In this document: piece by piece, positions 4,435 through 12,891 of the stretch | Position numbering within the stretch: the first letter of the stretch is position 1 | How the letters are laid out: each line of letters begins with the position of its first letter | IMG/VR virus record: IMGVR_UViG_3300021508_000002 | Span: 1 to 57,620 of that record | From: a virus | Lineage: Duplodnaviria > Caudoviricetes | DNA: 57,620 nt | Direction: 5' to 3' (one strand) | Translations under genes and position numbers: made by a program | Notes under the pieces: model-generated | The model's database searches: none | Seen by the model: the letters and a program-made list of their open reading frames with translations, nothing else | What the model was told of the DNA's origin: nothing

Positions 4435-4650
4435 CTGAGGTCTTTTAATCCCATTAACTACAATTACTATAATAAACAAATTTCCAATTCTCCACAATAA
4501 CTTTTGTGCAATTAGTTCAATTAATGTGCAATAAAAGCCAGGCCCCTATAGCAGGAACCTGACGTTAGAGTAAAACCAAACTTGACCGCAAGATTTAAAC
4601 AAGTCTTAAATGTTATATTGTAAATATATTCAAAATTATTATATTATCAC

Positions 4651-4658
4651 TACATTTG
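4651..4658 (+). promoter_or_regulatory. Bacteroidota sigma70-type -7 box
   Basis: TACATTTG matches TAnnTTTG, 19 nt before the ATG at 4678. Confidence 0.65.
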
Positions 4659-4677
4659 CCTAAACAAAATAACAGAT

Positions 4678-5100
4678 ATGAAAGATATTGCAGTAGTGGG
4701 TAAATTAATAGAAAGGGGAAAAACAAAAACATGGGATAACAGATCCATAAGACATTTTATTCTCTCCTGTGGGGAGAAGGCTAATATGATGGAGTTTGCT
4801 ATTATGAGCCCTAAAGAGTTAAACAACTTCAAACCATTCAAAGAGGGGGATTTACTTAAAGTGATCTTTTCTATAAATACTGGACCTTATATAGATAAGG
4901 ACGGCAAAGATAGGTGCTACACCTTCTTAAAAGCCCTAAGTACTACTTTGGTACAACGGAAGGATTTAAATGTCATGAAGGTTACTTATAATGCTTCTAT
5001 GGAGAAGATTAAGAAGAGTTACAGTAAGGCCTATCAAAGTGAGCGATTAGAAAAGAGAGCAGATGAACTTTTAAACAAGAGTCCTCTAAGAAAGGTATAA
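4678..5100 (+). CDS. DUF3127-like OB-fold (SSB-like) protein
   Basis: Pattern V.GKLI...F.L....F......FKEGD..KV.FSI....Y..L.A resembles Bacteroidota DUF3127. Confidence 0.6.
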   Translation: MKDIAVVGKLIERGKTKTWDNRSIRHFILSCGEKANMMEFAIMSPKELNNFKPFKEGDLLKVIFSINTGPYIDKDGKDRCYTFLKALSTTLVQRKDLNVMKVTYNASMEKIKKSYSKAYQSERLEKRADELLNKSPLRKV

Positions 5101-5105
5101 TCTTT

Positions 5106-5137
5106 TTTGGTTATGACCACACATTACTTTACCTTTG
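5106..5137 (+). promoter_or_regulatory. Bacteroidota promoter (-33 TTTG / -7 TACCTTTG)
   Basis: TTTG at 5106-5109, 20-nt spacer, TACCTTTG at 5130-5137. Confidence 0.8.
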
Positions 5138-5141
5138 CCAA

Positions 5142-5470
5142 ATGATTACAAATAAAACAATATCTTCTTATGCGTCTGAGAACACGATTGGGGATTTATT
5201 GTGTAGTCAAGTTAAAAGACAATACAATGGGGGTTACACACTGTCAGAGTTACCGAAAGATACGACTCGTAACAGCCTACTAGAGCAGGTAAAAAAAGTT
5301 GATGCAATGGTGCAAGCTAGTACAGCACCGGAGAACTTCTCATTATAGCTGGTCTAAGGTAACCACTCCTTTAGGAATAAGGTTATCTTCTAAGACTGGT
5401 AAGAAGTTTCAGCGTCCCAACACCTTTTTTTTTAAAGATGGTGACTAGGGAACCTGTAACTTCTTTTTGA
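5142..5470 (+). ncRNA. Candidate structured non-coding RNA (~320 nt), overlapping a doubtful 68-aa ORF
   Basis: Own promoter plus at least 8 mutually compatible helices, several with G-U pairs (see findings). Confidence 0.45.
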
Positions 5471-5622
5471 AGGAAACAAAGACAGTAAAAGAAATAAAAA
5501 GAAATATAATAATAAATATAGATAATATTATTATATTTGTATATCCCTTATAGAATAGGCGAGTGGGCGAGCTAACCTGACACTCTGTTAACTAGTATTT
5601 TAATAATAAAAGAAGAATTAAT

Positions 5623-5653
5623 TTTGTTATATAGTTAATTTAAACTATATTTG
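5623..5653 (+). promoter_or_regulatory. Bacteroidota promoter of the tRNA operon
   Basis: TTTG at 5623-5626, 19-nt spacer, TATATTTG at 5646-5653. Confidence 0.8.
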
Positions 5654-5657
5654 CCTC

Positions 5658-5717
5658 ATGGTAATGAAACAACTACATTTGAATCAACCGAAACCGCTTA
5701 AACTATTTAAGGGATGA
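5658..5717 (+). CDS. Putative attenuator leader peptide MVMKQLHLNQPKPLKLFKG
   Basis: ATG 4 nt after the -7 box (second ATG at 5664). 8 of 19 codons are CNN: CAA CTA CAT CAA CCG CCG CTT CTA. Confidence 0.7.
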   Translation: MVMKQLHLNQPKPLKLFKG

Positions 5718-5744
5718 TTTAATATGTACCGGCAATACTGTTAA

Positions 5745-5773
5745 ACCCATTCCTACCGAATGGGTCTTTTTTT
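5745..5773 (+). terminator. Intrinsic terminator (attenuator) upstream of the tRNA cluster
   Basis: ACCCATTC-CTACC-GAATGGGT then C and T7, ending 11 nt before tRNA-Pro. Confidence 0.85.
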
Positions 5774-5784
5774 GTGTTATAAAT

Positions 5785-5862
5785 CTTGGTGTTAGGTGCA
5801 GATGGCTATACCCGCCCGACTTGGAATCGGGAGATCCGTTGGTTCGAATCCAACCACTGAGA
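5785..5862 (+). tRNA. tRNA-Pro(UGG)
   Basis: Acceptor CTTGGTG/CACTGAG with A73; anticodon arm CCCGA-CTTGGAA-TCGGG; T-arm GTTGG-TTCGAAT-CCAAC. Confidence 0.9.
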
Positions 5863-5938
5863 CGAAATAGTTTTGACCTTGCGTTCTAAAATGACGTCTT
5901 AAAAAACATGAGGTGACCTTCAGGGAGAGGCCTGACCA

Positions 5939-6010
5939 TGAAGTATGATGTAATTGGTAGCATACGAAACTTTGATTTTCGTTGTTTGGGTTCGAGTCCT
6001 GATACTTCAA
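5939..6010 (+). tRNA. tRNA-Gln(UUG)
   Basis: Acceptor TGAAGTA/TACTTCA; anticodon arm CGAAA-CTTTGAT-TTTCG; T-loop TTCGAGT. Confidence 0.9.
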
Positions 6011-6016
6011 CAAAAT

Positions 6017-6090
6017 GGTATCTTTAGTATAACCGGTTAGTACAATGGGTTGTGATCCCATAAGTTTGAGTTCAAGTCTCAATTGATACC
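6017..6090 (+). tRNA. tRNA-His(GUG)
   Basis: G-1/C73; anticodon arm ATGGG-TTGTGAT-CCCAT; T-arm TTGAG-TTCAAGT-CTCAA; two U-U pairs at the base of the acceptor stem. Confidence 0.85.
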
Positions 6091-6095
6091 CAAAT

Positions 6096-6177
6096 GCAGA
6101 AGTGTTGGAATTGGTAGACATTGCGGGTTTAGAACCCGTTGCTTAATAGCGTGCGAGTTCGAGTCTCGCCTTCTGTA
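6096..6177 (+). tRNA. tRNA-Leu(UAG)
   Basis: Acceptor GCAGAAG/CTTCTGT with A73; anticodon arm GCGGG-TTTAGAA-CCCGT; long variable arm; T-arm GCGAG-TTCGAGT-CTCGC. Confidence 0.92.
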
Positions 6178-6181
6178 CTTT

Positions 6182-6253
6182 ATTTTCATAGTTTAACTGG
6201 AAAAACATTGGGTTTCGACCCCAAAGATGTAGGTTCGAGTCCTACTGAAAATT
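6182..6253 (+). tRNA. tRNA-Arg(UCG)
   Basis: Acceptor ATTTTCA/TGAAAAT; anticodon arm TTGGG-TTTCGAC-CCCAA; T-arm GTAGG-TTCGAGT-CCTAC; A20 present; atypical U73. Confidence 0.82.
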
Positions 6254-6345
6254 TTATAGTATGTCTCCTATGACATTTTACCTAAAATCCTTTGATAAAC
6301 AAGTTAAATACTGTTATTTTGCAGTAAACATATAATAAAGATTAA

Positions 6346-6723
6346 ATGGAGGTTCTGAAGTATTCTAAGGTATTAAGTGGTGTTGAGTATTACATAGCAC
6401 ACTTAAATATTATAAACTCCATATTTGATGTAAAGCTATCCTCTAAGGAGATTAGTGTATTGTCTTCTTTTATGTCACAAGAGGAGTCCATAGTGCAGGG
6501 AGATAGATTCAATTCTTTTATAAGAAAGCGTGTGAGAGTAGCTCTATCTTTGTCTCCTGGTGGTTTGGGTAATTACTTAAACACTATGGTTAAGAAGGGA
6601 TTTTTAATACGTAATAGTATCACAGGGAACTTAACTATACAGAAATATCTATTTCCAAGTAGTGCGGGACAAGGATATCAATTTAAAATAATCCATAAAA
6701 GTAATGAGGATGGTGGAATATGA
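6346..6723 (+). CDS. Winged-HTH-like DNA-binding protein
   Basis: LSSKEISVL...RVALSLSPGGLGNYLNTMVKKGFLIR resembles a MarR-type wHTH. Confidence 0.55.
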   Translation: MEVLKYSKVLSGVEYYIAHLNIINSIFDVKLSSKEISVLSSFMSQEESIVQGDRFNSFIRKRVRVALSLSPGGLGNYLNTMVKKGFLIRNSITGNLTIQKYLFPSSAGQGYQFKIIHKSNEDGGI

Positions 6724-6877
6724 AAGATGCCCAAAATGTCATGGGGTGGGTAGAGATAATAAAGGATTCTCCAAAGGGTCTTTTGAGAATGGGGATTGTA
6801 TTAAGTGTTATGGAAAAGGGTATTTAGATGGAACGGAGTTATATTTCACAGAAAATGCTTCTAAAAGAATACTATAA
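6710..6877 (+). CDS. Small DnaJ-type zinc-finger protein (55 aa)
   Basis: Hand translation MVEYERCPKCHGVGRDNKGFSKGSFENGDCIKCYGKGYLDG... with two CxxCxGxG motifs. Confidence 0.7.
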   Translation: MVEYERCPKCHGVGRDNKGFSKGSFENGDCIKCYGKGYLDGTELYFTENASKRIL

Positions 6878-7295
6878 TAGTATAAAAGAAGATTATCCTA
6901 ATTTATCTTTAAAGGAATTTACTATTGCAGTAAAAACTGCCTGGGAGGATGCTAGACAAGATATGAGGAATGGTAAAGTGTCTACCTTAAAATTTAAAGG
7001 GTTTGGTACATTTAAACCAAGTTTTCGACATTTTAAAATGTATAGTAGAAGGGTGGAACTATCGCATGCGGATGGGAATATTTCAGAGGAAGATTATAAA
7101 GATTACCAAAAATTATATAAAAGATATATAGATGCTTATGGAAAAGATTTCATACATACTGAGAAATATGATCCCATATATGATGGGGTCTTACAGAAAC
7201 TTGCTAAACGAAAAGGGCTTACAGTTTCTTATGAGGGACCATATTTTGGAACAGTGGACCTTCCGGATGAAAGTGATGGACAGGGAATGCTATAA
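6828..7295 (+). CDS. HU/IHF-like DNA-binding protein
   Basis: G..STLKFKGFGTFKP motif after two helices; typical of the crAss-like late region. Confidence 0.65.
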   Translation: MERSYISQKMLLKEYYNSIKEDYPNLSLKEFTIAVKTAWEDARQDMRNGKVSTLKFKGFGTFKPSFRHFKMYSRRVELSHADGNISEEDYKDYQKLYKRYIDAYGKDFIHTEKYDPIYDGVLQKLAKRKGLTVSYEGPYFGTVDLPDESDGQGML

Positions 7296-7431
7296 TCAGG
7301 GATCTTGTAAATATTGTGGTTGTGAGGTTCCTGCATTACAATTCTCTAATAATCGTTGTGAAGGTGATTGTTATCCTCCCATAATGTCCAAATCTGAATG
7401 GTATAAGTATAAACAGGAAAATAGTATATAA
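7132..7431 (+). CDS. Cys-rich (CxxCGC) putative Zn-binding protein
   Basis: ECYNQGSCKYCGCEVP...RCEGDCYP. Confidence 0.65.
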   Translation: MLMEKISYILRNMIPYMMGSYRNLLNEKGLQFLMRDHILEQWTFRMKVMDRECYNQGSCKYCGCEVPALQFSNNRCEGDCYPPIMSKSEWYKYKQENSI

Positions 7432-7739
7432 TGGAGGTTACAAAAACGTGGTTTACATATGATTTTAAAGATGTTGGGGAAGTAATTGCCGGTAAGCAGG
7501 TATTAGTGAAATTCTATGCTAAAGAGGGAATCCCTAAAATAAAAAGTTTAGCGGCCTCTTGTGGTTGCAGTAAACCTACATATGACAAGAAAAGTGAAGA
7601 AATTAAAATTTTATATAAACCAAATCCAATCCCCACCCATTTATTATCACAAGGGTATTATACAACAAAGAAGACTGTGACAGTAGTTTTTGAGAGTGGG
7701 GAAGTAAATAAGTTAGTATTTAAATCTAAAGTAGTATGA
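7431..7739 (+). CDS. DUF1573-like Ig-fold protein
   Basis: YDFKDVG...I..L.ASCGCS.P motif. Confidence 0.65.
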   Translation: MEVTKTWFTYDFKDVGEVIAGKQVLVKFYAKEGIPKIKSLAASCGCSKPTYDKKSEEIKILYKPNPIPTHLLSQGYYTTKKTVTVVFESGEVNKLVFKSKVV

Positions 7740-9528: not shown

Positions 9529-12500
9529 TTGGCAAAGAAAGTAGTAAAAGAGAAGAAACCGAGAAAGAAACGTATTGCACCTCTGAGGGGTTCTAACGGT
9601 GTTTGGTTGAACACCAAACCATTCAAAGAAGTTGGTGAGTATTTCATGAAGCATGGATACTATATTGCAGACCCTTGGGGATCTCCTGCATGGTATGATT
9701 TCTGGAAAAGGGAGCGAGATAGGTGTATGAATGGATATGCTATTTCTAAATATAAGATTACAGGAGATTACTATTTCTATCTCAACTATTGCCCTATACA
9801 GAAAGTAGACATAGAAAATGCTGTAGGTAAAAGAGCAAGTAAGATAAAGGGGTTTCCGGATTTTTGGGATGGGGACTATGAATACTTCTGGTTTAGAGAA
9901 ATAGCAAGAAATGGTATTTTAGAAGCCTTAAATGTACCATTAACAAAACAACAAGTTGTATATAATCTTCCTGAAGAAGAGAAGATTGAAATATATAAAA
10001 AACACTTAGATAGTTTGGGTCTAAAAATGAAGCCTGTACTTTCTAGTGTAAATTTAGAAGGTGGTAAAGATTTGATACTGGGGAAAGCTCGGCGTCGTGG
10101 CTTTAGTTATAAAAACAGTGCTGTTGTAGTCAACAATTATTTCACTAGACCAAACAAGTACAACCTTTTAATGGCTTATGAAAAAAAGTATTTGTACCCT
10201 GGCATAAAAACCATATTCGGAAAATGTCAATCTTATATAAACTTTATAAATGAATATACAGGGTGGCTAATGCCCTCTGATGTTATTGATAAACAAAGTC
10301 ACATAAAAGCATCTTACATAGAGTATAAGAATGGTAAGAAAATAGAGAAAGGGTTTCTTTCTGAAATAGAAGCTATTTCTTTTAAAGATAATCCTGATGC
10401 AGGTAGGGGGGCAGATACTTATGAAACAATTGGTGAAGAGGTTGGTGCTTGGGGAGTTCCAGGGGGGTTAAAAGCTACCATAGCTGCTATGCGGTCTTCT
10501 TCGGAAGCTGGTGGATTTAAAACAGGTATGATGACCCTCTTCGGATGTGTGTGTAAAGGTACTAAAGTTTATTTGCCTAATGGGGCTATTTGTAACATAG
10601 AGGATGTGCATGAATCTGTAGGTATAATAGGTTACACAGGGGGGGGTGTTATTTCTGAAAGGATTATTAATATAAATCCTATTATTAAAAAAGAATGCTA
10701 TAGAATAGAAACCACTAATGGAGATTTTATAGAGTGCAGTAATGACCACCCACTACTTTGGAGTTCTCCTAAATACAAAAAACCCGGGAAAGATGGGAAG
10801 AAAGTTACCTTTAAGAAAGCAGAAGACATACTTGTTGGAGACCAACTTATGTTACTTAGGCAAATACCTGTTTTTGGGAAAAAGAAAATGCCTTACGCAA
10901 GACTTATTGGTTTATTAATAGGTGATGGCTACTATGGCTCTATCAATGGTAGGACATCCACACCACAATTAGCCATTAATAATGAAGGTGTATTTGATTA
11001 TGTTAAATCAACCGGGTTGTTTTATAAAGTGTACAAAAACAAAGGTTCTTTCAATTACATAGGAATACACTCTTTCCAGGGCATATTGAAGGTCTTACAA
11101 ATAGATGGGCAAAGCAAGAAACAAAAAAGACTACCCAAAAAATTGTATGAATATGATTTACAGTCTATTGCAGATCTTTTGGGTGGATACTACGATGCTG
11201 TTGGGAATGTTAATTTAACAAAAAAGAAAAATAATAATGTTTCTATTGCTATAAGATTAACCTCCGTTGTGAGACCTTTACTTGAAGAAGTTCAAGAAGC
11301 ATTGAGGAGATTTGGGGTATTGTCTAGTATAATTAAAAGAAGACATAAGCCAGGGACTCTTCTTAAAAGTAGTATAACAGGTAATACTTCTGTCATAAAT
11401 ACGTTAATTTCATACTCTTTGGAAATAACAGATAGGGAATCTTTAAGGTCTTTCCAGAAACATATATCTTTCACCGATAGCTTAAAAAAGGAGAGATTAA
11501 AAAACTATTGTACAGATAGAAGTGATAATGAGCGTCAACTCAATAATTTTACATATGAAAAAACAGTAAAGGGTGAGTACTTTACAGACAAAAAACTAGA
11601 TGGGTTAACTTCAAGAAAGGTCTTAAATACAATAAAACTGGGGGAAAGAGATGTGTATAATTTAGGTACAGAAGAAACACACACTTATATCACCAATAAT
11701 TTTGTATCTCACAATACCTCTGGAAGTTTGGAAAAAGGTACTGCTGATTTTGCAGATTTATTCAACAGACCAGGTGCGAATAACTTCATGGAATTCTACG
11801 ATATTTGGGGAGAGCACCCTGAAAAAGTAGAGGGTTTCTTTTTTCCCAAACAGCTTAATACAGAAGGGTTTTATGACAAGAATGGTAACTCTGATTTTCA
11901 AGGGGCAGAGAACCAGGAAATGGGTGTTCGAAAGTCTTTAATAGAAAAGGGGGCAACTTCTACTGAGATTTTAAAAAGAATGCAGGAAGAGCCATTAAAT
12001 TCGGCAGAGGCCTTTTCAATGGTATCCCAAAATAATTTCCCTGTTGTAGAGATTAGACAACAACTAAATAAGTTAATAGCTAAGGGTTGGCAAAACACTA
12101 AAGGTACACCGGTAAAATTACACTATGTAGATGGTAAAATTACTGCAACACCAATCTTGAATGGGAAAGTTGAGCCCATAACATCTTTAAGAAATCTGCC
12201 ATTTGACTTAAGTGGTTGTCCTGTGATATATGAGGCTCCTATAAGTAAACCACCAAGAGGGTTGTACAAAATGGGATATGATCCTGTAAGACAAGACACT
12301 GGAACTTCTTTAGCAGCTATTGTGGTATATAAGTCTTTTCATGCAGGGTCTGTATACCACAGTACAATAGTGGCAGAGTATATAGGTAGGTATAAGACAC
12401 CAGAAGATATAGACAGAACAGCGGAGATGTTTGCAGATTTATTCAATACAACTATTATGTATGAGAATGAGGTGACAGGTACAAAGAATTACTTTCGCAG

Positions 12501-12891
12501 AATAAAGAGGTTGCACTTATTGGCTGTACAACCTGATGCGGTGATAAGTAAAAATGTGAAAACATCTCGTGTTGCTAGGGTTTATGGGTGTCATATGAAT
12601 GAGCAATTAAAAGATGCAGGAGAGAGGTATGTGAAAGAGTGGCTATTGACAGTTTTGGATCATGATGAGAATGGAAACAAGATACTGGTAATAGATAGGA
12701 TATATTCTAGGAGATTATTAGAGGAATTAATAAACTATACGAGAAAGGGTAACTATGATTTAATATCTTCTTTGTTTATGTGCATGTTTCAAGTTCAGGA
12801 AGAACAACTTGGTAAAGTGTATGGAGATGGTGAAGAAAATAAAAATGCCAAAAAATTACTAAATATGATTGAAAGGATGTATAGAAAATAG
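9529..12891 (+). CDS. terL: Terminase large subunit with intein
   Basis: Walker A-like GKARRRGFSY, Walker B TIGEEVG, coupling motif FG|TSG, nuclease motifs GYDPV and YENE..GNYD; directly upstream of the portal. Confidence 0.93.
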   Translation: MAKKVVKEKKPRKKRIAPLRGSNGVWLNTKPFKEVGEYFMKHGYYIADPWGSPAWYDFWKRERDRCMNGYAISKYKITGDYYFYLNYCPIQKVDIENAVGKRASKIKGFPDFWDGDYEYFWFREIARNGILEALNVPLTKQQVVYNLPEEEKIEIYKKHLDSLGLKMKPVLSSVNLEGGKDLILGKARRRGFSYKNSAVVVNNYFTRPNKYNLLMAYEKKYLYPGIKTIFGKCQSYINFINEYTGWLMPSDVIDKQSHIKASYIEYKNGKKIEKGFLSEIEAISFKDNPDAGRGADTYETIGEEVGAWGVPGGLKATIAAMRSSSEAGGFKTGMMTLFGCVCKGTKVYLPNGAICNIEDVHESVGIIGYTGGGVISERIININPIIKKECYRIETTNGDFIECSNDHPLLWSSPKYKKPGKDGKKVTFKKAEDILVGDQLMLLRQIPVFGKKKMPYARLIGLLIGDGYYGSINGRTSTPQLAINNEGVFDYVKSTGLFYKVYKNKGSFNYIGIHSFQGILKVLQIDGQSKKQKRLPKKLYEYDLQSIADLLGGYYDAVGNVNLTKKKNNNVSIAIRLTSVVRPLLEEVQEALRRFGVLSSIIKRRHKPGTLLKSSITGNTSVINTLISYSLEITDRESLRSFQKHISFTDSLKKERLKNYCTDRSDNERQLNNFTYEKTVKGEYFTDKKLDGLTSRKVLNTIKLGERDVYNLGTEETHTYITNNFVSHNTSGSLEKGTADFADLFNRPGANNFMEFYDIWGEHPEKVEGFFFPKQLNTEGFYDKNGNSDFQGAENQEMGVRKSLIEKGATSTEILKRMQEEPLNSAEAFSMVSQNNFPVVEIRQQLNKLIAKGWQNTKGTPVKLHYVDGKITATPILNGKVEPITSLRNLPFDLSGCPVIYEAPISKPPRGLYKMGYDPVRQDTGTSLAAIVVYKSFHAGSVYHSTIVAEYIGRYKTPEDIDRTAEMFADLFNTTIMYENEVTGTKNYFRRIKRLHLLAVQPDAVISKNVKTSRVARVYGCHMNEQLKDAGERYVKEWLLTVLDHDENGNKILVIDRIYSRRLLEELINYTRKGNYDLISSLFMCMFQVQEEQLGKVYGDGEENKNAKKLLNMIERMYRK
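10546..11715 (+). mobile_element. Intein (390 aa) with LAGLIDADG homing endonuclease
   Basis: C1 (CVCKGTKV), block B (IECSNDHPL), LIGLLIGDG and LLGGYYDAVG motifs, block F/G (VYNL...HTYITNNFVSHN), followed by Thr+1. Confidence 0.93.

What the first reader, a model, noticed from the sequence alone, without database searches (positions are those of the whole stretch)
5623..6253. Candidate tRNA-sensing attenuator: a CNN-codon leader peptide gates a tRNA operon decoding those codons
Seen: a host-type promoter (5623-5653), a 19-codon ORF (5658-5717), an intrinsic terminator (5745-5773), then five tRNAs. Eight of 19 leader codons are CNN (CAA, CTA, CAT, CAA, CCG, CCG, CTT, CTA), and CCG looks rare in this CG-poor genome. 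They specify Gln, Leu, His and Pro, four of the five downstream tRNA specificities. The stop region GGGATGATTTAATATGTA (5711-5728) can pair with TACTGTTAAACCCATTCC (5736-5753), which contains the terminator 5' arm, so the two hairpins are mutually exclusive. Established: this is the geometry of ribosome-mediated attenuation (trp/his leaders), and the Pro-codon leader mgtL of Salmonella responds to TrmD/m1G37 status. Inference: a ribosome reaching UGA masks the antiterminator, so the tRNAs stay off. Stalling on CNN codons (5670-5699) frees it, so the phage makes its tRNAs only when host CNN-decoding tRNAs are cleaved, uncharged or unmodified: an inducible counter-defence. I know of no described phage attenuator controlling tRNA genes, but cannot check the literature.
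Basis: partly seen in the sequence, partly recalled or inferred. Interest (0 to 1): 0.95.

Follow-up and report, generated by a model that had tools for sequence, protein, structure and literature searches.

The report
Codon-matched leader peptide gating phage tRNAs
A tiny gene in front of this phage's tRNA cluster is written in the very codons those tRNAs read and sits in a switchable terminator, so the phage probably makes its tRNAs only when ribosomes run short of them, a form of control not found described for tRNA genes.

Summary
The window holds a Bacteroidetes-type promoter, a 19-codon ORF, an intrinsic terminator and five tRNAs (Pro, Gln, His, Leu, Arg) at the stated coordinates.

The ATG lies 4 nt after the -7 box, so the transcript probably starts at the AUG (leaderless).

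Three hairpins of about equal strength (-10.7, -10.2 and -10.2 kcal/mol) form a classic 1:2 / 2:3 / 3:4 attenuator.

I collected 21 distinct leader/array pairs with full statistics, including Cellulophaga phage phi19:1, plus 5 more leaders read by eye or by script.
- In 19 of the 21, every tRNA of the array has a cognate codon in the leader.
- Arrays with other tRNA sets have other leaders: Tyr/Ser/Asn/Trp/Phe/Cys, Trp/Pro/Asp/Asn/Gln/His, and Ala/Lys/Ile/Gly/Asp/Thr/Val/Arg/Met/Asn.
- One contig has two arrays in tandem, each with its own matched leader.
- Synonymous choice is skewed: CCG is 18 of 21 Pro codons against 9.9% in the background.
- A purine-rich stretch about 11-13 nt after the run is complementary to the terminator's 5' arm in 18 of 21 leaders.

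Best reading: ribosome-mediated attenuation that closes a feedback loop on tRNA supply. There is no expression data. The counter-defence role is untested. Seven literature searches found no prior description.

The parts
5623..5626 (+). -33 element TTTG of a Bacteroidetes sigma-A type promoter
   Evidence: Read directly. It lies 19 nt upstream of the -7 box. The sigma-70 scan lists 5624-5651.
5646..5653 (+). -7 box TATATTTG (consensus TAnnTTTG)
   Evidence: In Flavobacterium psychrophilum this box sits at -12 to -5 of mapped starts (PMC9723704, passages read). The same box followed by 4 nt (18 leaders) or 5 nt (2 leaders) and then ATG occurs in 20 of the 21 leaders tabulated.
5658..5717 (+). 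Leader ORF of 19 codons plus TGA. A5658 is the predicted transcription start, which would make the mRNA leaderless.
   Evidence: Short ORFs at the same position are kept open in all relatives except L072.
5670..5705 (+). Regulatory codon run: CAA, CTA, CAT, (TTG, AAT), CAA, CCG, (AAA), CCG, CTT, (AAA), CTA. It covers Gln, Leu, His and Pro, four of the five tRNA specificities.
   Evidence: 8 of 18 codons are CNN against 11.8% background, P = 5.6e-4. The longest cognate run is 3, p = 0.021.
5674..5689 (+). Region 1: pairs with region 2 when no ribosome covers it
   Evidence: MFE of 5655-5780. The hairpin 5674-5728 has -10.7 kcal/mol.
5710..5728 (+). Region 2: the 5' strand of the antiterminator. 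It overlaps the last sense codon and the UGA stop.
   Evidence: A purine-rich stretch complementary to the terminator arm is found in the relatives.
5736..5754 (+). Region 3: the 3' strand of the antiterminator. It contains most of the terminator's 5' arm.
   Evidence: The 2:3 hairpin 5710-5754 has -10.2 kcal/mol. It is the MFE when 5670-5702 is masked.
5745..5773 (+). Intrinsic terminator: stem 5745-5765, T tract 5767-5773
   Evidence: Stability is -10.2 kcal/mol. The probability of the terminator is 0.99 with no mask or with a ribosome at UGA.
5785..5863 (+). tRNA-Pro (UGG), atypical 79-nt form
   Evidence: ARAGORN. Rfam gives 27.9 bits, below the 29-bit threshold. A near-identical form occurs in L028.
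5939..6011 (+). tRNA-Gln (UUG)
6018..6091 (+). tRNA-His (GUG)
6096..6178 (+). tRNA-Leu (UAG)
6182..6253 (+). tRNA-Arg (UCG). It has no cognate codon in this window's leader.

Best explanation
This is a ribosome-mediated (leader-peptide) transcription attenuator in front of a phage tRNA operon. Its regulatory codons are the codons read by the tRNAs it controls.

Proposed mechanism (inferred):
1. Transcription starts at the A of the ATG at 5658, so the mRNA is leaderless. A ribosome loads on the 5' AUG and follows the polymerase.
2. If the aminoacyl-tRNAs for Gln, Leu, His and Pro codons are plentiful, the ribosome runs to UGA 5715 and sits on region 2 (5710-5728).
3. Region 3 is then free to pair with region 4. 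The terminator 5745-5765 forms and transcription stops before tRNA-Pro.
4. If any of those tRNAs is scarce, the ribosome stalls in the run (5670-5699). That melts the 1:2 hairpin and leaves region 2 free.
5. Region 2 captures the terminator's 5' arm as soon as it is made, and the polymerase reads on into the five tRNA genes.
6. The new tRNAs relieve the stall. This closes a negative feedback loop that fits phage tRNA supply to translational demand.

Shown here: the anatomy, its conservation, the codon-to-tRNA match and the alternative pairings in silico.

Inferred: the transcription start, translation of the leader, stalling, and the effect on read-through.
For: (1) The layout is conserved in unrelated phages.
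- The window is FpV4-like by its terminase (48% identity). FpV4 itself has no tRNAs at the syntenic spot.
- The same array with a leader occurs in the siphovirus Cellulophaga phage phi19:1, where the ORF is not annotated.
- It also occurs in many uncultured viral contigs.

(2) Leader codons match the array.
- In 19 of 21 leaders every tRNA of the array has a cognate codon in the leader. The window and L025 reach 4 of 5.
- The longest cognate run beats simulation at p <= 0.01 in 18 of 21.

(3) Leader codons co-vary with the tRNA set.
- Arrays with tRNA-Glu have a Glu codon within codons 2-16 in 6 of 6 leaders. Arrays without it have one in 1 of 12 (Fisher 3.8e-4).
- L095 lacks both tRNA-Arg and any Arg codon. 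Its close relative L083 has both.
- The L088 array carries Asp and Met tRNAs, and its leader has GAC and ATG.
- Arrays of Tyr, Ser(UGA), Ser(GCU), Asn, Trp, Phe and Cys have runs of 11 and 15 consecutive cognate codons (L027b, L205).
- Where Leu(UAA) replaces Asn in that set, the run has Leu in place of Asn codons (L070, L077 internal leaders).
- The L107 array (Trp, Pro, Asp, Asn, Gln, His) has a leader with TGG, GAT GAT and four AAT.
- L027 has two tandem arrays, each with its own leader. Cognate codons of 15 are 9 (own set) against 3 (other set) for one leader, and 12 against 2 for the other.
- Across 8 representative pairs, only 2 of 40,320 permutations reach the matched score.

(4) Selection acts on codons, not only on amino acids (18 class-A leaders against pooled background).
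- Pro: CCG 18 of 21 against 9.9% (P = 9e-16).
- Arg: CGU/C/A 15 of 18 against 23% (1e-7), and never CGG, as expected for an ACG (inosine) anticodon.
- Leu: CUN 27 of 44 against 33% (8e-5).

(5) The geometry fits attenuation.
- The stretch complementary to the terminator's 5' arm beats dinucleotide shuffles at p <= 0.05 in 18 of 21 leaders, although terminator sequences differ.
- In most leaders the main run ends at nt 39-41 and that stretch starts at nt 50-54.
- In the 7 leaders folded first, the terminator arm is sequestered (P 0.6-0.88) while the A site is in the run. This falls to 0-0.3 within 1-3 codons after the run.
- In the window, masking 5670-5702 gives the antiterminator as MFE and masking 5700-5730 gives the terminator.

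(6) A -7 box followed by 4 nt and then ATG also heads many ordinary long ORFs in viral contigs (93 of 119 matches have ORFs longer than 45 codons). Leader-peptide attenuation is reported as likely in a flavobacterium (PMC9723704, passages read).
Against: - No transcript, ribosome or reporter data exist for any member. No RNA run was listed for the window.
- In the window alone, the region 2: region 3 complementarity is not better than shuffles (p = 0.158). The fold z-score is only -1.83.
- At equilibrium on the full-length leader, the terminator stays favoured whatever the ribosome position in several relatives. P(terminator) is 0.94-0.96 in L025 and L026, 0.94-0.95 in L046 at all but one codon (0.53), and 0.72-0.93 in L029. 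Terminators there are -14 to -16 kcal/mol, against -7 to -12 for the competing duplex. Read-through would therefore have to be kinetic, with the antiterminator forming first.
- With a stricter criterion only 10 of 21 leaders pass (arm sequestered at >= 0.5 at the last cognate codon and <= 0.3 soon after). That criterion is sensitive to the assumed ribosome footprint and to stray cognate codons.
- Without any ribosome, the antiterminator is predicted to form partly in some leaders (0.4-0.8) and not in others (0.01-0.13). The untranslated state is therefore not uniform.
- The window and L025 leaders have no Arg codon although their arrays carry tRNA-Arg. L104 has an Arg codon without an Arg tRNA. 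L029's opposite-strand leader keeps codons for tRNAs that its array lacks.
- The loci are related, so the P values overstate independence.
- Several array members came from ARAGORN at a lowered threshold or from my reading of an alignment.
- Cognate assignment assumes that U34 reads all four codons of a family box.
- Leaderless mRNAs were only 5.5% of mRNAs in F. psychrophilum.
- L028 carries the window-type tRNA-Pro directly behind a promoter with no leader. L072 has lost the ATG.
Confidence: 0.75

Rival explanations
1. The same element is mainly an inducible counter-defence. It would keep the tRNA array silent until host anticodon nucleases, tRNA depletion or loss of tRNA modification stall ribosomes on the leader. 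This is a claim about purpose. The mechanism is the same as in the best explanation.
For: The stall-to-read-through polarity fits. Each array is gated by its own codon set, so a hit on any one tRNA species would switch on the array that replaces it. That phage tRNAs can act against tRNA-targeting defences is recalled knowledge, not checked here.
Against: No defence or nuclease gene was linked to these loci, and none was looked for. The sensed codons are simply rare in these AT-rich genomes: CCG is 0.26% and all CGN together 0.4% of window codons. Stalling is therefore expected early in any infection without an attack. Arrays that cover most of the code carry leaders too, which points to general supply rather than a specific nuclease.
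Confidence: 0.2
2. The short ORF encodes a functional micropeptide with its own terminator. The tRNAs would be expressed by unregulated read-through or from another promoter, and the codon match would be a by-product of the peptide sequence.
For: The N-terminal (M-K-T/K) and C-terminal (G-G-T/I-S/G-V) flanks are similar across leader classes. L028 shows that a tRNA-Pro can be driven directly by a promoter.
Against: The central run changes composition with the tRNA set, and its residue order is shuffled. Synonymous codon choice is strongly skewed to the cognate rare codons, which peptide-level selection cannot explain. The conserved GGAGG-like C-terminal codons are complementary to each locus's own terminator arm. 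Only 11 nt separate the T tract from tRNA-Pro. The TTTTTTTG there (5767-5774) is not conserved in the relatives.
Confidence: 0.05
3. The leader is translated and senses these codons, but the output is not intrinsic termination. It could be processing or stability of the tRNA precursor. Or the polarity could be reversed, with stalling lowering tRNA output.
For: At equilibrium the terminators of several relatives stay folded whatever the ribosome position. Internal leaders sit between tRNAs inside longer transcripts, where RNase P/Z processing is at work.
Against: Every leader is followed by a canonical hairpin plus T tract directly before the first tRNA. The stop codon lies 25-50 nt upstream of the hairpin, so a terminating ribosome cannot melt it. 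The only conserved competitor of the terminator is the stretch just 3' of the run. Reversed polarity would give positive feedback without a brake.
Confidence: 0.07
4. Chance: an ordinary intergenic region in which a promoter, a spurious ORF and a terminator happen to sit in front of tRNAs.
For: In the window alone the fold z-score (-1.83) and the 2:3 complementarity (p = 0.158) are unremarkable.
Against: Conservation, co-variation and synonymous-codon bias across 21 leaders.
Confidence: 0.01

Closest known systems
Leader-peptide transcription attenuators of amino-acid operons (trpL, hisL, pheL, leuL, thrL, ilvL types). This description is recalled textbook knowledge; pheL and trpL papers were seen only in search listings.
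   Same: A short ORF lies between the promoter and an intrinsic terminator. It has a run of diagnostic codons and three overlapping pairings (1:2, 2:3, 3:4). A ribosome stalled in the run frees the antiterminator, and a ribosome that reaches the end masks it.
   Different: The regulated genes are tRNAs, not biosynthetic enzymes, so the product itself relieves the stall. The run mixes 4 to 10 different specificities that mirror the tRNA set, instead of repeating one amino acid. The mRNA is probably leaderless. The element is on phage genomes and moves with the array between unrelated phages.
Polycysteine leaderless short ORFs of mycobacteria (Canestrari et al., bioRxiv 10.1101/834739; abstract read)
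   Same: A leaderless short ORF starts at the 5' AUG, and ribosome pausing on it at diagnostic codons controls downstream genes. Several loci share one signal.
   Different: [quoted passage not shown] It responds to cysteine and controls cysteine metabolism. Here the output is an intrinsic terminator in front of untranslated tRNA genes.
mgtL / mgtP proline-codon leaders of Salmonella mgtA and mgtCBR.
   Same: Pro codons in a short leader ORF couple translation speed to alternative leader RNA structures.
   Different: Those control Mg2+ transport and virulence genes, not tRNAs, and there is no match between the leader and a downstream tRNA set. No sequence similarity was tested or seen.
T-box riboswitches
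   Same: A cis-acting leader reads tRNA status and decides between a terminator and an antiterminator.
   Different: T-boxes bind uncharged tRNA directly, need no translation, and control aminoacyl-tRNA synthetase and amino-acid genes. No Rfam family other than tRNA matched 4500-7500, even at E <= 1.

Membership tests
Ribosome-mediated leader-peptide transcription attenuator | A short ORF between the promoter and an intrinsic terminator, upstream of the regulated genes | tested here: met
   Window features at 5646-5653, 5658-5717 and 5745-5773. The same layout occurs in 21 leaders.
Ribosome-mediated leader-peptide transcription attenuator | Leader enriched in codons tied to the regulated function | tested here: met
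   Window: 8 of 18 CNN against 11.8%. In 19 of 21 leaders every tRNA of the array is represented. Synonymous bias. Permutation test, 2 of 40,320.
Ribosome-mediated leader-peptide transcription attenuator | Mutually exclusive terminator and antiterminator, with the antiterminator's 5' strand placed just beyond a ribosome stalled in the run | tested here: met
   In silico only. Window hairpins are -10.7, -10.2 and -10.2 kcal/mol, and the MFE switches with the mask. In 18 of 21 leaders the complementarity is better than shuffles, and the run-to-strand gap is about 11-13 nt. The window alone gives p = 0.158.
Ribosome-mediated leader-peptide transcription attenuator | The leader is translated, and read-through rises when the cognate charged tRNA is limiting | not testable with these tools
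   No RNA run was listed. No Ribo-seq, Term-seq or reporter data are available.
Ribosome-mediated leader-peptide transcription attenuator | The regulated genes are amino-acid biosynthesis, transport or aminoacylation genes (all classical members) | tested here: not met
   The first downstream genes are tRNAs, starting 11 nt after the T tract. This is why I call it a new variant and not a new member.
T-box riboswitch | Stem I with a specifier loop, and the conserved T-box sequence in the antiterminator | tested here: not met
   cmscan of 4500-7500 at E <= 1 returned only the five tRNAs.
Leaderless short-ORF attenuators (mycobacterial Cys type) | Transcription start at the A of the start codon | tested here: inconclusive
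   Predicted only. The -7 box ends 4 nt before the ATG in 18 of 21 leaders and 5 nt before it in 2. The box sits at -12 to -5 in F. psychrophilum. No 5'-end data exist.
Leaderless short-ORF attenuators (mycobacterial Cys type) | [quoted passage not shown] | tested here: not met
   The downstream genes are tRNAs, which are not translated. The competing structure is an intrinsic terminator.

The most novel reading that the evidence does not exclude
Phages of Bacteroidota run their tRNA genes as self-adjusting regulons. The arrays are sorted roughly by codon class: C-starting codons, U-starting codons, and A/G-starting codons. Each array is gated by its own interchangeable leader peptide, whose central codon cassette is rewritten whenever a tRNA is gained or lost. 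The ribosome itself would then be the sensor that tells the phage which decoding capacities the infected cell lacks, whether through codon-usage mismatch, host shut-off or tRNA-cleaving defence. This would be the first case of leader-peptide attenuation controlling tRNA genes, and a natural, modular sensor for any tRNA.
Probability: 0.55. Interest if true: 0.92.

Novelty: new variant of a known kind. Interest (0 to 1): 0.9.

Why it matters
Why phages carry tRNAs is debated, with codon compensation, host shut-off and escape from tRNA-cleaving defences all proposed. How the phage controls those tRNAs is largely unexplored, and that debate is recalled here, not checked.

If this reading is right, several things follow.
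- tRNA genes can be under direct, product-sensing feedback through the ribosome.
- The leader sequence tells us which decoding steps the phage 'expects' to be limiting.
- The same scaffold has been re-coded many times in nature for different tRNA sets, which makes it a ready-made design for synthetic tRNA or codon sensors.
- The debate becomes testable in two cultivable systems: Cellulophaga baltica with phage phi19:1, and Flavobacterium with FpV4-like phages.
- Genome annotation gains a rule: unannotated ORFs of 18-32 codons in front of phage tRNA arrays should be looked for.

Tried and rejected
- The first pattern, on the tRNA-Gln D-arm, was unspecific. It gave 19 loci, mostly tRNA-Trp of unrelated phages, and only phi19:1 itself was relevant.
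- The protein next door (6346-6723) gave 1 related locus, which has no tRNAs.
- FpV4, the nearest named relative by terminase, has no tRNAs at the syntenic place.
- Pro-arm pattern in viral contigs: 1 of 7 loci (L030) was a chance match inside a GC-rich coding region and was dropped.
- Pro-arm pattern in metagenomes: of 28 loci, 21 had no tRNA. Two (L035, L044) carry tRNA-Pro inside a different, larger array and were not followed. L032 and L053 duplicate L027 and L028.
- Pro-arm pattern in bacterial genomes: 20 loci, mostly Bradyrhizobium and other non-Bacteroidota records, taken as chance matches and not examined further. There is therefore no host or prophage evidence.
- The 75-nt gap between tRNA-Pro and tRNA-Gln is not a detectable remnant of the tRNA-Glu that relatives carry there (p 0.45-0.93 against shuffles).
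- I first thought the Asn and Phe codons of the L027 first leader matched distant Asn and Phe tRNAs. Those tRNAs belong to a second array with its own leader.
- No RNA holder was listed for window 5400-6400.
- Seven literature searches found no paper describing a leader-peptide attenuator for tRNA genes. Papers in subscription journals and supplements were not searchable.
- The leader peptides are too short (under 30 aa) for the protein-search and folding tools, so none was used.
Full report
**1. What is in the window**

- Promoter: TTTG (5623-5626), then 19 nt, then TATATTTG (5646-5653). This is the Bacteroidetes sigma-A pattern.
- ORF: ATG at 5658 opens 19 codons that end at TGA 5715-5717.
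- Terminator: an 8-bp hairpin (5745-5765) followed by seven T (5767-5773).
- tRNAs: tRNA-Pro starts 11 nt later, followed by Gln, His, Leu and Arg. Rfam confirms four of them and scores tRNA-Pro just under its threshold (27.9 against 29 bits). No other RNA family matches.

Eight leader codons are CNN: CAA, CTA, CAT, CAA, CCG, CCG, CTT and CTA. That is 8 of 18 after the start, against 11.8% in the window's long ORFs (P = 5.6e-4). CCG is indeed rare, at 36 of 13,962 codons.

**2. The fold in the window**

The unconstrained MFE pairs 5674-5689 with 5711-5728 (regions 1 and 2) and forms the terminator (regions 3 and 4).

Three hairpins are nearly equal in strength:
- 1:2, -10.7 kcal/mol
- 2:3 (5710-5754), -10.2 kcal/mol
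- 3:4, -10.2 kcal/mol

- Masking 5670-5702, a ribosome stalled in the run, makes the 2:3 antiterminator the MFE.
- Masking 5700-5730, a ribosome at the stop, restores the terminator (P = 0.99).

Taken alone, the window is not statistically compelling. The fold z-score is -1.83. The 2:3 complementarity gives p = 0.158 against shuffles.

**3. Relatives**

By terminase the window phage is FpV4-like (48% identity). FpV4 has no tRNAs at the syntenic place.

The nearest DNA match to the array is in an unrelated siphovirus, Cellulophaga phage phi19:1.
- The same five tRNAs are there. Pro is not annotated in the record but is found by ARAGORN.
- They are preceded by an unannotated 30-codon ORF and a terminator.
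- The ORF contains eight consecutive codons reading His, Ile, Gln, Arg, Leu, Pro, Gln, Pro.

Pattern scans brought in many more loci:
- the tRNA-Pro anticodon arm
- a tRNA-His pattern

After removing duplicates I tabulated 21 leader/array pairs. I also found one partial leader (L054) and four more, internal or on the opposite strand: three in L070 and L077 and one in L029.

The array with its leader therefore behaves as a mobile cassette shared by different phage lineages.

**4. Leader codons follow the tRNA set**

I counted a codon as cognate by standard wobble, with U34 reading a whole family box.

Coverage and runs:
- In 19 of 21 leaders every tRNA of the array is represented.
- The window and L025 lack an Arg codon (4 of 5).
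- The longest run of cognate codons beats simulation from pooled codon usage at p <= 0.01 in 18 of 21. The exceptions are the window (0.021), L080 (0.14) and L088 (0.12).

When the array differs, the leader differs with it:
- tRNA-Glu against a Glu codon in codons 2-16: 6 of 6 leaders with the tRNA, 1 of 12 without it.
- L095 has no tRNA-Arg and no Arg codon. Its near relative L083 has both.
- L088 carries Asp and Met tRNAs and has GAC and ATG in the run.
- L225 (Pro, Glu, Gln, His, Leu-UAG, Leu-UAA, Arg) has ten consecutive cognate codons covering all seven.
- L205 and the second leader of L027 precede Tyr, Ser-UGA, Ser-GCU, Asn, Trp, Phe and Cys. They have runs of 15 and 11 cognate codons that include both UCN and AGU serine codons.
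- The internal leaders of L070 and L077 precede the same set with Leu-UAA in place of Asn. Their runs contain Leu codons instead of Asn codons.
- L107 (Trp, Pro, Asp, Asn, Gln, His) has TGG, GAT GAT, four AAT, CCT, CAT and CAA.
- A long array starting Ala, Lys, Ile, Gly, Asp, Thr, Val, Arg-UCU, Met, Asn has a leader that represents 10 of 10.

Two summary tests:
- L027 holds two arrays in tandem, each with its own promoter, leader and terminator. Cognate codons of 15 are 9 (own) against 3 (other) for the first leader, and 12 against 2 for the second.
- Over 8 representative pairs, 2 of 40,320 permutations reach the matched score.

**5. The selection is on codons**

In the 18 leaders of the Pro-first class, against the pooled background:
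- Pro is CCG in 18 of 21 cases (background 9.9%, P = 9e-16).
- Arg is CGU/CGC/CGA in 15 of 18 (background 23%, P = 1e-7). It is never CGG, as expected for an ACG anticodon read as inosine.
- Leu is CUN in 27 of 44 (background 33%, P = 8e-5).

A peptide selected for its amino-acid sequence would not show this.

**6. Geometry across the family**

- In each leader a purine-rich stretch (GGGAGG, GGAGG, GGGAAGG, GGGUGG, GCAAGAC, AAGGG and others) is complementary to that locus's own terminator 5' arm.
- The duplex beats dinucleotide shuffles at p <= 0.05 in 18 of 21. The exceptions are the window, L077 and L095, at about 0.15.
- In most leaders the main run ends at nt 39-41, usually on CCG. The complementary stretch starts at nt 50-54, just outside a ribosome whose A site is on that codon.
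- In the first seven leaders, the terminator arm is predicted to be captured (P 0.6-0.88) while the A site is anywhere up to the end of the run. It is free (0-0.3) one to three codons later.

**7. Leaderless start**

- The -7 box ends 4 nt before the ATG in 18 of the 21 leaders and 5 nt before it in 2.
- In Flavobacterium psychrophilum the box occupies -12 to -5, which puts +1 on the A of the ATG. Leaderless mRNAs exist there but are a minority (5.5%). The authors report clues for leader-peptide attenuation upstream of amino-acid operons (PMC9723704, passages read).
- The same box plus 4 nt plus ATG also heads many ordinary long ORFs in viral contigs (93 of 119 matches).
- Internal leaders (L107, L070, L077) follow a tRNA instead of a promoter. 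The Ala-first class has a 5' UTR of about 20-25 nt.

**8. Weak points**

- Nothing is shown experimentally.
- In several relatives the terminator is much stronger than the competing duplex and stays folded at equilibrium whatever is masked. The switch must therefore be kinetic.
- A stricter positional criterion is met by only 10 of 21 leaders.
- The untranslated state is not uniform across leaders.
- There are mismatches between leader and array (window, L025, L104, L029 opposite strand).
- Some tRNAs were called at lowered thresholds or by eye.
- The loci are related, so the P values are not independent.
- L028 has the window-type tRNA-Pro directly behind a promoter with no leader. L072 has lost its start codon.

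**9. Comparison with known systems**

The element works like the classical leader-peptide attenuators and meets their structural criteria in silico. It differs in four ways:
- The regulated genes are tRNAs.
- The run is a mixed 'bar code' of the array.
- The mRNA is probably leaderless.
- The element is phage-borne and mobile.

The mycobacterial polycysteine leaderless ORFs share the leaderless sensor, but they act on a ribosome-binding site (abstract read). T-box elements sense tRNA without translation, and none is detected here.

Seven full-text searches found no description of a leader-peptide attenuator for tRNA genes. Subscription journals and supplements were outside the search.

**10. 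Verdict**

I rate it a new variant of a known kind of regulation, of high interest.

The counter-defence purpose remains open. A supply-and-demand feedback on rare-codon decoding is the more economical reading.

Noticed in passing
window 9529-12891 (+): The large terminase ORF is 1120 aa. Phage relatives match it in two pieces (66% coverage), and the middle carries a LAGLIDADG domain (548-646) and an intein splicing domain (384-729, just under Pfam's cut-off). It is probably an intein with a homing endonuclease inside the terminase.
   Followed up: partly
window 5785-5863; L028 4394-4472 (-): The window's tRNA-Pro is an atypical 79-nt form with the anticodon at position 38, and it scores below Rfam's threshold. 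L028 has a near-identical one directly behind a TATATTTG box with no leader or terminator. It is followed by tRNA-like stretches that ARAGORN does not call.
   Followed up: partly
window 5864-5938: A 75-nt spacer separates tRNA-Pro and tRNA-Gln. Relatives have 41-65 nt there, or a tRNA-Glu. The window and phi19:1 share a short similar stretch before tRNA-Gln. It is not a detectable tRNA-Glu remnant, and its function is unknown.
   Followed up: partly
L027, L029, L060, L070, L077, L205: In these phages the tRNA genes are grouped roughly by the first codon letter, each group behind its own leader. The groups are C-starting codons (Pro, Gln, His, Leu-CUN, Arg-CGN), mostly U-starting codons (Tyr, Ser, Trp, Phe, Cys, Leu-UUR, plus Asn and Ser-AGY), and A/G-starting codons (Ala, Lys, Ile, Gly, Asp, Thr, Val, Arg-AGR, Met, Asn). 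Whether this reflects position-37 modification classes was not examined.
   Followed up: no
L072: This relative keeps the codon run, the GGGAGG stretch and the terminator, but it has no ATG and a degraded -7 box. It is possibly a decaying attenuator.
   Followed up: no
L109-L225: The motif of a -7 box, 4 nt and then ATG AAA AC heads many ordinary genes in viral contigs. One ORF length, 155 aa, occurs about 30 times. Of the 26 ORFs of 45 codons or fewer, 23 have no tRNA downstream. Some of these might be leaders for other genes.
   Followed up: no
window 5349-5620: A 270-nt stretch with no ORF of 40 or more codons outside 5299-5448 lies upstream of the promoter. It has a T tract at about 5427-5436 and AT-rich repeats. 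It probably holds the terminator of the preceding genes (4678-5348) and was not analysed.
   Followed up: no
window 5767-5774: The terminator's T tract plus the next G reads TTTTTTTG, one letter away from a -7 box. It is not conserved in the relatives, so I do not take it for a promoter.
   Followed up: partly
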